Position numbers and translations under genes: made by a program | Notes under the pieces: model-generated | Database searches by the model: none | The model's input: only the letters and a program-made list of their open reading frames with translations | What the model was told of the DNA's origin: nothing | Assembly (NCBI GenBank): GCA_000165345.1 | Contig: CM000433.1 | Span: 288,001 to 352,000, forward strand | Direction: 5' to 3' | Length of the DNA: 64,000 nt | Shown: positions 6,842 to 57,464 of the stretch, one piece after another | Layout: the number at the start of each line of letters is the position of its first letter | How positions within the stretch are numbered: position 1 is the first letter of the stretch

Positions 6842-6866
6842 GTTCCCCGTCGCACGCGGGGATAAC
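6842..6866 (+). promoter_or_regulatory. GC-rich imperfect palindrome (CCCCGTCGCACGCGGGG) about 50 bp upstream of the RRM gene ATG
   Basis: It is an isolated GC island in an AT-rich intergenic region with CCCCG...CGGGG arms, so it could form a hairpin or be a cis element. It is of the same class as the other upstream GC motifs listed here. Confidence 0.3.
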
Positions 6867-6913
6867 TTTCTGTTTTTTCTACCCATTTATACTTTTCACA
6901 TTTCCTTCGTAAT

Positions 6914-7675
6914 ATGCCAGAGGCAAAAAAACGGGGAAGAAAACCAATTTTTCGAAAAATGGAGGAGGATAATTCTGAGCCACAAACATGCCAAGCTGAA
7001 GAAGGCAATAGCCAAACCCAACATGAATTGGAACAGGCTGAACCAATTCAAGAAGCTACAAATGCGGAGTCAGATGAGAAGAACCAAGTAGCCCCTCAGA
7101 TTGAACGAAGTAATGATCCTTCATGTACACTCTATGTTTGCAGGCTTTCTTTAAAAACAAAAGAAGATGACTTACGCCGGCTATTTGAGGATTATGGTGA
7201 AGTAACTGATTGTCATTTAGTTACTAATCCATTATCTGGCGAAAGCAGGTGTTTTGGGTTCGTAACTATGGGTAATGAGGAGGAAGCAGCGCGTGCAAAA
7301 GATGCACTGGATGGGAAAGAATATCAAGATGCAAGTTTGAAGGTTGAGACAGCAAGACGTGCTAAGCCATATGATCCCACTCCAGGAGAATATAAAGGGC
7401 CCCAATATCGATCAATTAAATATAATTCAAGAACTGGGTATTCTCGTTCTTCACATCGTGGCAATTCATTTAGACATTCTACTAGGAGTAGATATGACTA
7501 TCCACCGCCATCTCATTCGAGGGGTGATCAATACAACAGACACAATGATGACTATTACAACAGATACTATGATAGCAGATACCCTAGACCGGATGATTAT
7601 CACTCCTCTAGGTACCACTCACCGCCACGTTATTCTAGAGCAGATCCGTACGACTCAAGATATAGCAGACGATAA
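6914..7675 (+). CDS. RRM-containing RNA-binding protein with a C-terminal RS/RY-rich low-complexity tail (Tra2/SR-protein-like)
   Basis: RNP-type RRM ('LYVCRLSLKTKEDDLRRLFEDYGEVTDCHLV...CFGFVTMGNEEEAARAKDALDGKEY'), followed by an Arg/Ser/Tyr/Asp-rich repeat region (RSRYDYPPPSHSRGD...RYHSPPRYSRADPYDSRYSRR). Confidence 0.7.
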   Translation: MPEAKKRGRKPIFRKMEEDNSEPQTCQAEEGNSQTQHELEQAEPIQEATNAESDEKNQVAPQIERSNDPSCTLYVCRLSLKTKEDDLRRLFEDYGEVTDCHLVTNPLSGESRCFGFVTMGNEEEAARAKDALDGKEYQDASLKVETARRAKPYDPTPGEYKGPQYRSIKYNSRTGYSRSSHRGNSFRHSTRSRYDYPPPSHSRGDQYNRHNDDYYNRYYDSRYPRPDDYHSSRYHSPPRYSRADPYDSRYSRR

Positions 7676-7837
7676 AGTTATTAATCAAACTAAAATTAAC
7701 TAAATTTACTGTTTTTACAATATCCAGTCTAGAATAGAGTTTTGTACATTTCAAATTTTCCCGTCTTCTTATTCAGATTCCGCTTATTTCCCGTATTTTC
7801 CCCTTTTGTTCCCCCTTTTATTTTTATTTTATGAAAG

Positions 7838-8659
7838 ATGCAAGAAATTGATTACAAGTTGGTGAATGGAACTCATAGTCTCTTGACAACTTACTTTCTC
7901 GTCTCGACTGTTGCTGTAATTTTTTCCAGCGTGGTCCGGTTTGCTAATTTGATCACGACTCACGGTAAACTTCGCAAGAAGAATTTATCCTCAGAGAATA
8001 TTGGAAGTACCTCAACTGATAAGGTAATTTATTTAATATTGGGGTTGAGCGTGAATAAAGGGTGGTTTCGTTATTTCTATCTAGTTGGGGTATTCACAAC
8101 ATTAATTTGCGTATATTTAGGCTATCCAAATTGCCACAGATTACTTTTTTTTTTAATACATGTGATTAGAAGGCTATATGAAGAAGTATTTATTTCATAT
8201 CATAACACAAATTATAGTAAAATGAGTATTTTTGTATTTTTATTTGGTATATCATACTATATTATAATGCCTATAACATTATTGGCTACCCAAGATTTCT
8301 ATGGGAAATTTGTAGTTTTGCAATATATATCTTTCGCAGCATTTTCTTTAGTTCAATATAAAAGTCATGTTAAACTTTCAAACATTAGGAGAGCAAATTC
8401 CGAGGAGTATGGTATTCCTTATGGTGGTATGTTTAAATTTGTTAGTTGCCCACACTATTTCAGCGAGATTGGAATATATATATCATTATTTTTTGATGCT
8501 ATTTTTAATTCAAATAATTTGCATATTGCGGCCGCTCTATTATATATTATTAGTTGTATGTATTTAAATGCAATACGAGCACATAAATGGTATATTAACT
8601 ATTACAAGGAGTCATACCTATCTCTAAATCGCAAAGCAATTATTCCATATATTGTTTAA
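7838..8659 (+). CDS. Polyprenol reductase / steroid 5-alpha-reductase family membrane protein (SRD5A3/DFG10-like)
   Basis: Polytopic 273-aa ORF. It has the N-terminal 'HGKLRKK...VNKGWFRYFY' and the C-terminal catalytic-region signature 'YGIPYGGMFKFVSCPHYFSEIGIY...H.WY..Y' typical of the SRD5A/TECR family. Confidence 0.7.
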   Translation: MQEIDYKLVNGTHSLLTTYFLVSTVAVIFSSVVRFANLITTHGKLRKKNLSSENIGSTSTDKVIYLILGLSVNKGWFRYFYLVGVFTTLICVYLGYPNCHRLLFFLIHVIRRLYEEVFISYHNTNYSKMSIFVFLFGISYYIIMPITLLATQDFYGKFVVLQYISFAAFSLVQYKSHVKLSNIRRANSEEYGIPYGGMFKFVSCPHYFSEIGIYISLFFDAIFNSNNLHIAAALLYIISCMYLNAIRAHKWYINYYKESYLSLNRKAIIPYIV

Positions 8660-9051
8660 TTTTCTGATAATATCATTTTTAGGCGTCCATCCTTCCAAGA
8701 TTCATACGGATTTCTGATTATTCTAAATTCAATGTCATTTAAACTTAAATTTGGTGCATTAAGATTAACACCTAGAATGTGAAACAACCAATAATTATTC
8801 TGTAATCTTTCTGCGAGCTTCCATTCATTGAAAGAAATACGAAAAAAGTTCTTTTCTTTTTTTGATGATGATTTAACTTCAACAAATATTTCCTCCTTTG
8901 TTCCTCTTGTTTTATCCATGAAAACTAAAATAATGTCGTAAGGAAGACCCGATTCTGCTGTTTCATTAACCCAAGTTATATTGAAATAATCAATTCCAAG
9001 CTCGTTACTAAACTTTTCTTTCAAGGAATCAAAGGCTAGTTTTTCTCCCAT
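8656..9051 (-). CDS. DUF3883-like (PD-(D/E)xK restriction-endonuclease-fold) domain ORF. It is probably the frameshifted C-terminal domain of the upstream giant gene.
   Basis: 131-aa ORF 'GEKLAFDSL...WVNETAESGLPYDIILVF...EEIFVEVKSS...FFRISFNEWKLAERLQNNYWLFHI' matches the DUF3883 pattern (G-E-x-L-A; WV..E; YDI; [VI]EVK[ST]; F.[IL]S.NEW..A). Its frame is open upstream of its ATG. It sits 11 nt after the stop of ORF 9063..15161, in the +1 frame. Confidence 0.6.
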   Translation of the reverse strand: MGEKLAFDSLKEKFSNELGIDYFNITWVNETAESGLPYDIILVFMDKTRGTKEEIFVEVKSSSKKEKNFFRISFNEWKLAERLQNNYWLFHILGVNLNAPNLSLNDIEFRIIRNPYESWKDGRLKMILSEN

Positions 9052-9062
9052 CTTACCTATTT

Positions 9063-56528: not shown

Positions 56529-56601
56529 AAATATAAACTTTTCAGGTAGGCCTAATTTAAAGTTTTTTTTTTTTGCCGCTATAAAAGCAATGGAAATCCA
56601 C

Positions 56602-56619
56602 TTTTTTTTTTTTTTTTTT
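56602..56619 (+). repeat. Poly(dT) tract (about 18-19 T) immediately 5' of the Yip1-domain gene ATG; a second T12 run lies about 40 nt upstream
   Basis: The homopolymer run sits in the 93-bp divergent intergenic between ATG 56528 (-) and ATG 56622 (+). Coordinates are accurate to within 1 nt. Confidence 0.8.
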
Positions 56620-56621
56620 AA

Positions 56622-57230
56622 ATGAGCGAAATTGATAGAGATATATTTGTTGTTAGTGGAGATATATATAATGGAGAGGAATCTGGCGGAACGCTAAACG
56701 AGCCGATAATGAAAACGGTCAAGAGGGATATATTTCTCATTTACAATAAATTACATTATTTTATTACTGCTGGAAAGAACGAGTTCGATCGCGAATATAA
56801 TTTGAAGATGCTATATAATTGGGACTTATGGGGACCTTGCATTATATTGCTAGTATTATCCTCTTGTCTATATATAAAAGCCCCAGTTGAAAATAAGGAT
56901 AAGATTTTCTCAGTTTTGCATTTTTTCTCGATTTACGGCACAGTAGCAATTGCTTTAAATGCGCGGATCTTAGGCATTAATTGTTCATTCTTTGCCATAT
57001 TAAGCATAGTTGGGTACTGCATATTCCCATTTACAGTAATATCATTAATTTCATTAATTATTCCTTATTTCTTTGTAAAGCTAATTTTCACAATATTATC
57101 AATTACTCATATTTACAAGGTTATGCAATTATCTATGAACGAGATTGCTCCCGAAGAGAAAAAGGTTTTGATTTTATATCCAATTTCACTGTTTTTTTTT
57201 TCGGTAGCATTCCTAGTGCTAATTAATTAG
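56622..57230 (+). CDS. Yip1-domain family membrane protein (YIPF-like, Rab-GTPase interacting)
   Basis: 202-aa ORF with a cytosolic N-terminus, the family motif 'DLWGPCIILLVL' (compare DLxGP) and 4-5 TM helices. Confidence 0.7.
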   Translation: MSEIDRDIFVVSGDIYNGEESGGTLNEPIMKTVKRDIFLIYNKLHYFITAGKNEFDREYNLKMLYNWDLWGPCIILLVLSSCLYIKAPVENKDKIFSVLHFFSIYGTVAIALNARILGINCSFFAILSIVGYCIFPFTVISLISLIIPYFFVKLIFTILSITHIYKVMQLSMNEIAPEEKKVLILYPISLFFFSVAFLVLIN

Positions 57231-57449
57231 TATTCTATTAAGTTTACATAAATATGTATCAGGCCTTTGCGCATAAGCAATCTTACACTAATTGTTCTAC
57301 TTGAATAAGGAGAGAATAAGGCGTTAGGGATACTTCACATTCAGTTCTAATTCGATAACTACTAGAATAACTCGGAGTACGGCATTCTAATTTTTCGGAA
57401 ACATCTTTGGGTTCAATTGCGTTATGTAGATATTGAACTTTTGCCCGGT

Positions 57450-57464
57450 AAAGGCGCGCCAATT
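57450..57464. promoter_or_regulatory. E2F-like palindromic motif AAAGGCGCGCCAATT about 140 bp upstream of the RPL3 ATG. A second GCGCC lies 10 nt downstream.
   Basis: GGCGCGCC palindrome plus GCGCCG form an isolated GC island in the Yip1-RPL3 intergenic region. Confidence 0.35.

What the first reader, a model, noticed from the sequence alone, without database searches (positions are those of the whole stretch)
6842..57464. Recurrent GC-rich E2F-like elements 20-150 bp upstream of many start codons
GC islands are rare in this AT-rich DNA. Nevertheless near-identical short motifs recur just upstream of start codons: TTTTGGCGGCAAAA (35995..36008), TTTGGCGGCATTT (47827..47839), TTTGGCGGTATTTTT (32733..32747), CTTTGGCGCTAG (39894..39905), AAAGGCGCGCCAATT (57450..57464, before RPL3), ATTCCGCGCTAAAT (reverse complement TTTAGCGCGGAAT) (15174..15187), AAGGCGCCATT (32569..32585) and CAACTGGCGGCAAT (26391..26404, reverse strand). 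Related imperfect palindromes are CCCCGTCGCACGCGGGG (6842..6866) and AAGCGGTACATACTGCTACCGCGCTT (about 35800..35835, upstream of the NDK gene). All fit the E2F/DP site class TTTSGCGCSAAA. A motif of this kind is, as far as I recall, the dominant upstream element reported for Cryptosporidium genes. That is consistent with, but does not prove, that lineage.
Basis: partly seen in the sequence, partly recalled or inferred. Interest (0 to 1): 0.6.

Follow-up and report, generated by a model that had tools for sequence, protein, structure and literature searches.

The report
Known Cryptosporidium E2F-like promoter motif
The window is Cryptosporidium parvum chromosome 5, and the recurring GGCG(C/G) boxes just upstream of start codons are real, strongly placed and conserved across the genus, but they are the E2F-like upstream motif already published for this parasite.

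Summary
All ten quoted sequences are present at, or within 1-3 nt of, the stated coordinates. The window is C. parvum chromosome 5: its proteins match the organism exactly and its DNA is 99.99-100% identical to CP044418.1.

I mapped 33 annotated genes onto the window. The core GGCGS occurs 11 times in 5.2 kb of promoter-containing intergenic DNA. Dinucleotide shuffles predict 2.4 (z 5.7). It occurs 11 times in 57 kb of genes, where 21.8 are expected, and never in 1.6 kb of tail-to-tail spacers.

Blind k-mer and motif discovery both recover T(T/G)GCG(G/C)CA as the top motif. The sites lie 17-153 nt upstream of ATGs, on either strand.

In six Cryptosporidium species, out to C. felis and C. bovis, the sites keep their position and their distance to the ATG. 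Substitutions stay inside the E2F consensus while the flanks diverge.

The most likely function is a promoter binding site for the parasite's E2F/DP factors. The papers I read (2013, 2014, 2025) propose the same thing, and none reports direct binding. The element at 6845 fits the G-box better than E2F.

Verdict: real, correctly interpreted, already known, and of low interest. One side lead is a directional ATCTAW box next to several of the sites.

The parts
35995..36008 (+). E2F-like site TTTTGGCGGCAAAA, 51-64 nt upstream of the ATG of the 1234-aa gene (36059)
   Evidence: TGGCGG is invariant in all six Cryptosporidium species and lies 58-69 nt from the ATG in the five species with comparable annotation.
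47827..47839 (+). E2F-like site TTTGGCGGCATTT, 78-90 nt upstream of the ATG of the 277-aa gene (47917) and 17 nt after the stop of the 2592-aa gene
   Evidence: Identical in C. meleagridis.
32733..32747 (+). E2F-like site TTTGGCGGTATTTTT, 79-93 nt upstream of the ATG of the 715-aa gene (32826)
   Evidence: A site of this class is present 83-91 nt from the ATG in all six species. C. bovis carries the alternative form TTTAGGCGCCAG at the same place.
32571..32581 (.). Palindromic E2F-like site AAGGCGCCATT, 39-49 nt upstream of the ATG of the 382-aa gene (32532, minus strand)
   Evidence: The orthologous sites are GGCGCC, CGCGCC and CCCGCC, so all changes stay within SSCGCC.
39894..39905 (+). E2F-like site CTTTGGCGCTAG (exact TTTSSCGC match), 127-138 nt upstream of the ATG of the 2592-aa gene (40032)
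   Evidence: GGCGCTAGTTATC is conserved in five species, and C. bovis has AGCGCC at the aligned place.
57450..57464 (.). E2F-like site AAAGGCGCGCCAATT (GGCGCGCC core), 139-153 nt upstream of the RPL3 ATG (57603)
   Evidence: The GCGCCAA half is conserved in C. meleagridis.
57469..57476 (-).
   Evidence: Identical in C. meleagridis.
53781..53788 (-).
   Evidence: TGCGCCAC is conserved in C. meleagridis.
26391..26404 (-). E2F-like site ATTGCCGCCAGTTG (CAACTGGCGGCAAT on the minus strand), 94-107 nt upstream of the ATG of the 1601-aa gene (26498)
   Evidence: CCGCCA is invariant in six species at 94-129 nt from the ATG, in a spacer that is otherwise poorly alignable.
15173..15186 (-). E2F-like site ATTCCGCGCTAAAT in a 69-nt head-to-head spacer, 18-31 nt from the Longin-domain (SNARE-type) gene ATG (15204) and 39-52 nt from the SACS-like gene ATG (15134, minus strand)
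   Evidence: CCGCG(C/G)TAAAT is conserved in C. ubiquitum although the spacer is only 56% identical.
35802..35827 (.). Inverted pair of half-sites AAGCGGTA...TACCGCGCTT, 98-123 nt upstream of the NDK ATG (35704, minus strand)
   Evidence: Both arms are conserved while the spacer between them varies. The right arm is TACCGCC (GGCGGTA on the other strand) in the chipmunk genotype and C. ubiquitum and GCCGCC in C. felis.
6845..6861 (.). CCCCGTCGCACGCGGGG, 53-69 nt upstream of the RRM-protein ATG (6914). Doubtful as an E2F site; GCGGGG fits the G-box G[T/C]GGGG.
   Evidence: It is conserved in C. ubiquitum, but that whole spacer is 80% identical, so conservation says little here. G-box definition.
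4410..4417 (+). Weak variant ATGCGGTA, about 50 nt upstream of the guanylate-cyclase-like gene ATG (4360, minus strand)
   Evidence: Aligns to a full TGGCGGTATC site in C. ubiquitum.
1306..1313 (+). Weak variant TGCCGCAT, about 20 nt upstream of the TPR gene ATG (1287, minus strand)
   Evidence: Aligns to TTGGCGGTTT in C. ubiquitum.
5301..5308 (-). Weak variant TACCGCAA (TTGCGGTA on the minus strand) in the head-to-head spacer between the 271-aa gene and the actin-like gene
   Evidence: ATTACCGCAATTT is identical in C. ubiquitum in a spacer that is 56% identical overall.
18968..18975 (+). Weak variant TTGCGGTA, about 20 nt upstream of the PRELI gene ATG (18991)
   Evidence: No orthologous sequence was available to test conservation.
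20726..20733 (+). Weak variant TTGCGGTT in the 43-nt head-to-head spacer between the 337-aa gene and the Tcf25 gene
   Evidence: No orthologous sequence was available to test conservation.
56574..56581 (-). Weak variant TGCCGCTA (TAGCGGCA on the minus strand) in the 93-nt head-to-head spacer between the 227-aa gene and Yip1
   Evidence: TTGCCGC is conserved in C. meleagridis.

Best explanation
These are promoter cis-elements of Cryptosporidium parvum: short double-stranded DNA sites with the core (T)TGGCG(C/G), and weaker TTGCGGTA / TGCCGCA forms. Each gene tends to have its own site about 20-150 nt upstream of its ATG, in very short AT-rich spacers.

The most likely mechanism is that a heterodimer of the parasite's E2F and DP winged-helix factors recognises the CGCG/GGCG core in either orientation and marks or opens the core promoter for RNA polymerase II. 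Cryptosporidium lacks an Rb protein, so output would depend on E2F/DP abundance, which is highest in sporozoites and early asexual stages, and on neighbouring elements.

Shown here:
- the sites exist;
- they are strongly and specifically placed in promoter-containing spacers;
- they occur in both orientations;
- their position relative to the ATG and their sequence class are conserved across six species.

Taken from papers: genome-wide over-representation, presence in open-chromatin peaks, and E2F and DP genes in the genome.

Inferred and not shown by anyone in the papers I read: that E2F/DP is the protein that binds, and that binding activates transcription.
For: Identity of the window: exact protein matches to C. 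parvum and 99.99-100% DNA identity to chromosome 5 assemblies.

Placement: GGCGS occurs 11 times in 5196 nt of promoter-containing spacers against 2.4 expected (z 5.7, 0 of 500 shuffles). It occurs 11 times in 57182 nt of genes against 21.8 expected, and 0 times in 1622 nt of tail-to-tail spacers. Binomial P = 3e-7.

Unbiased tests: the only GC-rich k-mers enriched in spacers relative to genes are GGCGC (31x), GCGGC, TGGCGC and GCGGCA, although the spacers are more AT-rich (25% against 31% GC). A home-made de novo motif search gives TTGCGnCn / TGnCGC as the top motif, score 52.8 against 32.4 +/- 2.8 in 20 shuffled sets.

Conservation: in four orthologous spacers of six species, core bases are conserved in 4.69 of 5 other species against about 3.3 for other spacer bases (0 of 10000 permutations). 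Distance to the ATG is kept, for example 83-91 nt in all six species for the 715-aa gene. Substitutions stay in class: GGCGCC / CGCGCC / CCCGCC, and GGCGGTA to GGCGCCA. The placement bias recurs in every other species' locus tested.

Orientation: sites occur on either strand relative to the gene, as expected for a protein site on duplex DNA.

Literature: the E2F-like motif is the most over-represented upstream motif, upstream of 161 of 200 co-expression clusters. It is the top motif in ATAC-seq peaks. Two E2F and two DP genes are listed. AP2 domains tested on protein-binding microarrays bind other motifs.
Against: No direct evidence that E2F/DP binds these sites is reported in the papers I read. 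The 2025 review states that most regulatory components lack functional validation, and the 2013 paper calls for ChIP-seq.

The local consensus TGGCGG(C/T)A, with weaker TTGCGGTA forms, is not the textbook TTTSGCGC. Only 3 sites match TTTSSCGC exactly, and GGCGGG is absent from the window.

Only about a quarter of the genes here have a strict core.

Transcription start sites are unknown to me, so 'promoter' rests on distance to the ATG. All statistics come from one 64-kb window plus orthologous loci, which are not independent.
Confidence: 0.7

Rival explanations
1. The boxes are real, conserved promoter elements, but a different DNA-binding protein reads them: an untested zinc-finger, Myb or ApiAP2 protein, or an atypical E2F acting without DP. 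The resemblance to E2F sites would then be partial or coincidental.
For: The local consensus carries a 3' (C/T)A extension, and variants such as TTGCGGTA and AAAAGCGGTA do not fit TTTSSCGC. GCGGYA occurs 11 times against 1.2 expected, though I defined that pattern after seeing the data. No binding data for E2F/DP are reported in the papers I read.
Against: Between-species substitutions follow the degeneracy of the E2F consensus (S-S-CGCC). The a-priori E2F patterns are themselves enriched. The AP2 domains assayed bind TGCAT, CACACA and the G-box, not this motif. Among apicomplexans, Cryptosporidium alone has both E2F/DP genes and this motif.
Confidence: 0.2
2. The element acts in RNA, as a 5'-UTR signal for translation, stability or processing of polycistronic transcripts, rather than as a DNA binding site.
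For: The sites lie only 17-153 nt from ATGs, so some could be transcribed. The preprint finds the motif in the spacers inside polycistronic transcripts.
Against: Sites occur in both orientations relative to the downstream gene. Several are palindromic (GGCGCC, GGCGCGCC). One 69-nt head-to-head spacer holds a single site for two genes. An RNA signal would be strand-specific. The motif also marks open chromatin at 5' ends.
Confidence: 0.05
3. There is no specific function. The GC-rich boxes reflect composition, mutation bias, or selective reading of a few matches in a large window.
For: Whole-window counts of TGGCGS and of TGGCGCCA with up to 1 mismatch are within or near the range of shuffles.
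Against: The placement bias is very strong and recurs in every species' locus. The core is depleted in genes and absent from tail-to-tail spacers. Blind discovery recovers it far above shuffled controls. Individual sites are conserved out to C. bovis and C. felis while their flanks diverge.
Confidence: 0.02

Closest known systems
Published C. parvum 'E2F-like' upstream motif family: TGGCGCCA, [C/G]GCGC[G/C], GGCGGG and [A/T][C/G]GCGC[G/C][A/T] (Oberstaller et al. 2013, PMC3734150, citing Bankier 2003; a GGCG-core motif before glycolytic genes in Mullapudi et al. 2007, PMC1779779; ATAC-seq peaks in bioRxiv 10.1101/2025.01.17.633476)
   Same: Same organism, same core and same upstream placement. 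It occurs on either strand, before RPL3 as reported for ribosomal protein genes, and is the strongest motif in the spacers.
   Different: Nothing essential differs. In this window the GGCGG(C/T)A form dominates and GGCGGG is absent. Site-by-site conservation out to C. felis and C. bovis, at a fixed distance from the ATG, is something I did not find in the papers I read.
Canonical E2F/DP binding sites of animals and plants: TTTSSCGC / TTTSGCGCSAAA, and plant TTTCCCGCC / TTTGGCGGG (WTTSSCSS)
   Same: A GC core of CGCG/GGCG type with a T-rich 5' flank, partial dyad symmetry, a promoter-proximal position and orientation independence. There are 10 WTTSSCSS and 3 TTTSSCGC matches in the spacers. The consensus is as described.
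   Different: The sites appear before a broad range of genes rather than a cell-cycle set. No Rb partner is known in the parasite. Many sites deviate from the strict consensus by 1-2 bases. Binding has not been demonstrated.
ApiAP2-bound promoter motifs of apicomplexans: TGCATGCA, and the G-box G[T/C]GGGG
   Same: Short promoter-proximal motifs in compact AT-rich spacers. The window also holds a TGCATG cluster at 16029-16075 and G-box matches at 6856, 39886 and 55363.
   Different: The sequence class is different, and AP2 domains assayed on protein-binding microarrays do not bind the E2F-like motif. Only the element at 6845 is better filed under the G-box.

Membership tests
C. parvum E2F-like upstream motif family (Oberstaller 2013) | The organism is Cryptosporidium parvum | tested here: met
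   Exact protein matches to C. parvum entries, and 99.99-100% DNA identity to chromosome 5 assemblies CP044418.1 and CP141122.1.
C. parvum E2F-like upstream motif family (Oberstaller 2013) | Sequence matches [C/G]GCGC[G/C], TGGCGCCA or GGCGGG | tested here: met
   All 3 SGCGCS hits in the window are in promoter-containing spacers. 6 of 8 TGGCGCCA hits with up to 1 mismatch are in such spacers. GGCGGG has no hits. CCCCGTCGCACGCGGGG at 6845 does not fit.
C. parvum E2F-like upstream motif family (Oberstaller 2013) | Over-represented in upstream regions relative to background | tested here: met
   11 observed against 2.4 expected in spacers (z 5.7), about 11-fold denser than in genes, and the top de novo motif. 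This covers the window only; the genome-wide result comes from the literature.
C. parvum E2F-like upstream motif family (Oberstaller 2013) | Lies in open chromatin at the 5' ends of transcripts | not testable with these tools
   No ATAC-seq or transcription-start data are available here. Reported genome-wide in the 2025 preprint.
Functional E2F/DP binding site | Matches the consensus TTTSSCGC / WTTSSCSS | tested here: inconclusive
   3 exact TTTSSCGC and 10 WTTSSCSS matches in the spacers, both enriched. Several sites, such as TTGCGGTA and AAAAGCGGTA, deviate by 1-2 bases or in the polarity of their flanks.
Functional E2F/DP binding site | Purifying selection on the site: conserved in related species, with changes confined to the degenerate positions | tested here: met
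   Six-species alignments of four spacers: core conservation 4.69 of 5 against about 3.3 for other bases, 0 of 10000 permutations. Variants seen are GGCGCC / CGCGCC / CCCGCC.
Functional E2F/DP binding site | Cognate E2F and DP proteins are encoded by the genome | not testable with these tools
   None is expected in this chromosome 5 window; I did not scan all window proteins. Papers list two E2F genes (on chromosomes 1 and 6; cgd1_1560 or cgd1_1570, and cgd6_1430) and two DP genes (cgd7_3650, cgd8_1850).
Functional E2F/DP binding site | Physical occupancy by E2F/DP and an effect on transcription | not testable with these tools
   This needs ChIP, CUT&RUN, EMSA or reporter mutagenesis. None is reported in the papers I read.

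The most novel reading that the evidence does not exclude
The E2F-like box may be one half of a conserved two-part core promoter. In five promoters with a strict site (those of the 1601-, 382-, 1234-, 2592- and 277-aa genes), a directional ATCTA(A/T) box lies about 0-20 nt from the box, always on the sense strand of the downstream gene: 6 sense against 0 antisense. Its ATCTA core is invariant in six species at three of the four promoters with six-species alignments, and in five of six at the fourth. The box could be an initiator or transcription-start element that gives direction to an otherwise orientation-free E2F site. I did not find it in the papers I read.
Probability: 0.2. Interest if true: 0.45.

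Novelty: already known. Interest (0 to 1): 0.15.

Why it matters
The finding recovers, from raw sequence alone, the main known promoter signal of an important diarrhoeal parasite, and it correctly identifies the lineage. That is useful as a check on the scan, but it adds nothing new in kind. The motif has been in the literature since 2003-2013 and was recently tied to open chromatin.

Individual sites hold their place and their distance to the ATG across the genus, with substitutions that follow the E2F consensus. This strengthens the case that they are functional. It also points to specific, well-conserved sites, such as 35995-36008 and 32733-32747, as good targets for the missing experiment: direct E2F/DP binding and reporter mutagenesis.

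Tried and rejected
- Whole-window enrichment. TGGCGS (16 against 8.5 expected) and TGCGCCA-type matches (TGGCGCCA with up to 1 mismatch, 8 against 5.3) are not clearly above shuffles. I stopped using the total count as a criterion because the signal is in placement.
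- GGCGGG, a published variant, has no hits in the window.
- GAGA, CCAAT, GCACAC and [A/C]AACTA show no significant placement bias in this window.
- A look-up of the 2023-aa ORF product failed, because the annotated protein differs by one residue in length. Gene models were obtained through other proteins instead.
- The first BLAST mapping returned nothing because I pointed it at the wrong files. It worked when repeated.
- C. meleagridis proved too close to be informative: its spacers are 83-93% identical to C. parvum.
- The Bankier 2003 paper is not held, so it is cited only through later papers.
- I ran no further search on finding E2F/DP homologues, because three papers already list them.
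- I considered and rejected a chance or composition artefact, and an RNA-level signal (see the rival explanations).

Full report
**What the window is.** It is AT-rich (24-37% GC in 2-kb bins) and packed with long ORFs on both strands. Three of its proteins are exact matches to Cryptosporidium parvum entries such as EAK88103, XP_626081 and F0X4M5_CRYPV. The DNA is 99.99-100% identical to C. parvum chromosome 5 assemblies (CP044418.1, CP141122.1). I transferred the CP044418.1 gene calls onto window coordinates, giving 33 genes. These define 23 promoter-containing spacers (head-to-head or head-to-tail, 5196 nt) and 9 tail-to-tail spacers (1622 nt).

**The observation.** All ten quoted strings are present. 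Seven sit exactly at the stated coordinates and three are off by 1-3 nt or were given as the reverse complement. With the transferred gene models, every one lies 17-153 nt upstream of an annotated ATG.

**Is it more than chance?** Total counts in the window are unremarkable: TGGCGS 16 against 8.5 +/- 3.6, and TGGCGCCA with up to 1 mismatch 8 against 5.3. The signal is in where the matches fall.
- GGCGS, on either strand, occurs 11 times in promoter-containing spacers against 2.4 +/- 1.5 in dinucleotide shuffles of those spacers (z 5.7, 0 of 500 shuffles reach 11).
- It occurs 11 times in 57 kb of genes against 21.8 expected, so it is depleted there.
- It does not occur in tail-to-tail spacers.
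- Half of all hits fall in 8.1% of the sequence (binomial P = 3e-7).
- Patterns fixed in advance by the literature behave the same way: SGCGCS 3 of 3 window hits in spacers, TTTSSCGC 3 of 3, WTTSSCSS 10 of 24.

**Unbiased discovery.** A comparison of all 4- to 6-mers between spacers and genes returns AT-rich words, as expected from composition (25% against 31% GC). The only GC-rich words it returns are GGCGC (31-fold), GCGGC (12-fold), TGGCGC (30-fold) and GCGGCA (37-fold). A simple expectation-maximisation motif finder that I wrote gives TTGCGnCn / TGnCGC(A/C)A as its best motif, with sites in about 20 of the 23 spacers. Its score is 52.8 against 32.4 +/- 2.8 (maximum 36.7) for 20 shuffled sets. 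With the strict core, 9 of 33 genes have a site within 200 nt upstream; one of the nine cores (56685, counted for the 227-aa gene) lies inside the neighbouring Yip1 coding sequence. Among the other published C. parvum motif families, none is as strongly placed in this window.

**Conservation.** I fetched the syntenic NDK neighbourhood from five other species: C. meleagridis, chipmunk genotype I, C. ubiquitum, C. felis and C. bovis. NDK protein identity falls to 66-67% in the two most distant. I also fetched two further loci, from C. ubiquitum and C. meleagridis.

In the four promoter-containing spacers aligned across six species, the motif cores sit inside the longest invariant blocks while most of each spacer is barely alignable. 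Core bases are conserved in 4.69 of 5 other species against about 3.3 for other spacer bases. For the three most distant species the figures are 2.73 of 3 against about 1.6. No permutation out of 10000 reaches either value.

Distance to the ATG is also held. It is 83-91 nt in all six species for the 715-aa gene, 58-69 nt for the 1234-aa gene in the five species with comparable annotation, and 94-129 nt for the 1601-aa gene.

Where the sequence changes, it changes within the E2F degeneracy. The site before the 382-aa gene reads GGCGCC, CGCGCC or CCCGCC. The site before the 715-aa gene is TTTGGCGGTA in five species and TTTAGGCGCCA in C. bovis. Two weak C. parvum variants (4410, 1306) align to full GGCGG sites in C. 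ubiquitum. The site at 15173 is conserved in a spacer that is only 56% identical. The placement bias of GGCGS recurs in every other species' locus (P from 1e-2 to 5e-9). These loci are orthologous, so they are not independent samples.

**The two 'palindromes'.** The element at 35802-35827 is a pair of inverted half-sites, GCGGTA and TACCGC(G/C). Both arms are conserved and the spacer between them varies. In the chipmunk genotype and C. ubiquitum the right arm is TACCGCC, which is the GGCGGTA form seen at 32733, and in C. felis it is GCCGCC. It belongs with the family. The element at 6845-6861 lacks T/A flanks and matches the published G-box G[T/C]GGGG. It is conserved in C. ubiquitum, but so is the whole spacer at 80% identity. 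I would not file it as E2F-like.

**Mechanism.** The sites occur on either strand relative to the gene and several are palindromic. One 69-nt head-to-head spacer holds a single site, while longer head-to-head spacers hold one site near each ATG. This fits a protein that reads duplex DNA in a core promoter, not an RNA signal.

The literature supplies the rest.
- The E2F-like motif is the most over-represented upstream motif in C. parvum, upstream of 161 of 200 co-expression clusters, including ribosomal protein genes.
- It is the leading motif in ATAC-seq open-chromatin peaks at transcript 5' ends.
- Cryptosporidium is the only apicomplexan genus reported to keep E2F and DP genes; two of each are listed, with highest expression in early asexual stages.
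- AP2 domains assayed on protein-binding microarrays bind other motifs.
- No Rb homologue is known.

My best explanation is that these are E2F/DP binding sites that mark core promoters. That second step is inference. None of the papers I read reports direct binding, and the 2025 review says most components lack functional validation.

**Rival explanations.** I give another transcription factor reading the same boxes about 0.2. The support is the (C/T)A extension and the TTGCGGTA variants, which do not fit the textbook consensus, although I defined that pattern after seeing the data. I give an RNA-level role about 0.05; it is contradicted by the mixed orientation. I give chance or composition about 0.02; it is contradicted.

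**Novelty.** The motif, its upstream over-representation, its E2F interpretation and its link to open chromatin are all published. The finding is a correct rediscovery. What I did not find in the papers I read is site-by-site conservation across the genus at a fixed distance from the ATG; a search for phylogenetic footprinting in Cryptosporidium returned nothing relevant. A directional ATCTA(A/T) box next to several sites is not named in the 2013 motif paper. Both are small extensions, based on a handful of promoters.

**Verdict.** The finding is already known and of low interest.

Noticed in passing
window 26404-26411, 35985-35992, 39907-39913, 47845-47851, and 32550-32556 (minus strand): A directional ATCTA(A/T) box, often GATCTAAA, lies about 0-20 nt from strict E2F-like sites. 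It is always on the sense strand of the downstream gene: 6 sense against 0 antisense within 200 nt upstream of ATGs. GATCTAAATATT is invariant in six species directly 5' of TGGCGG. It may be an initiator-type element. The numbers are small, and it is not named in the 2013 motif paper.
   Followed up: partly
window 16029-16075: Five overlapping TGCATG copies, including one TGCATGCA (the known ApiAP2 'AP2_1' motif), lie in the 105-nt spacer upstream of the 326-aa gene. They are conserved in C. ubiquitum.
   Followed up: partly
window 3197 and 20007: The window carries single-base insertions relative to CP044418.1. Each splits an annotated gene into two ORFs: the 972-aa guanylate-cyclase-like gene and a 337-aa gene. 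These are probably assembly errors or strain differences in whichever assembly the window comes from.
   Followed up: partly
window 32748-32770: The block ATGCGTTTTTGGGTGTAGTT, immediately 3' of the E2F-like site before the 715-aa gene, is nearly invariant in all six species. It contains TAGTT, the reverse complement of the published unknown motif [A/C]AACTA. TAGTT also abuts the GGCGC sites at 39903 and 53778.
   Followed up: no
window 26100-26125 and 35755-35772: Two further blocks conserved across six species contain GAGCGG / CCGCTC: TTACTCACATTGCACCGCTCGCA, about 134 nt upstream of the 864-aa gene, and TTAGAGAGCGGAAAAG, about 58 nt upstream of NDK. They could be another variant of the same family or a separate element.
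   Followed up: no
window 6770-6913 and 7676-7837: These two head-to-tail spacers are unusually conserved between C. parvum and C. ubiquitum (80% and 85% identity, against about 55% for other spacers). The C. ubiquitum record has no gene call where C. parvum has the steroid-dehydrogenase-like gene.
   Followed up: no
window about 26320-26365: A (TA)n microsatellite lies in the 517-nt head-to-head spacer between the 864-aa and 1601-aa genes. Its length varies between species.
   Followed up: no
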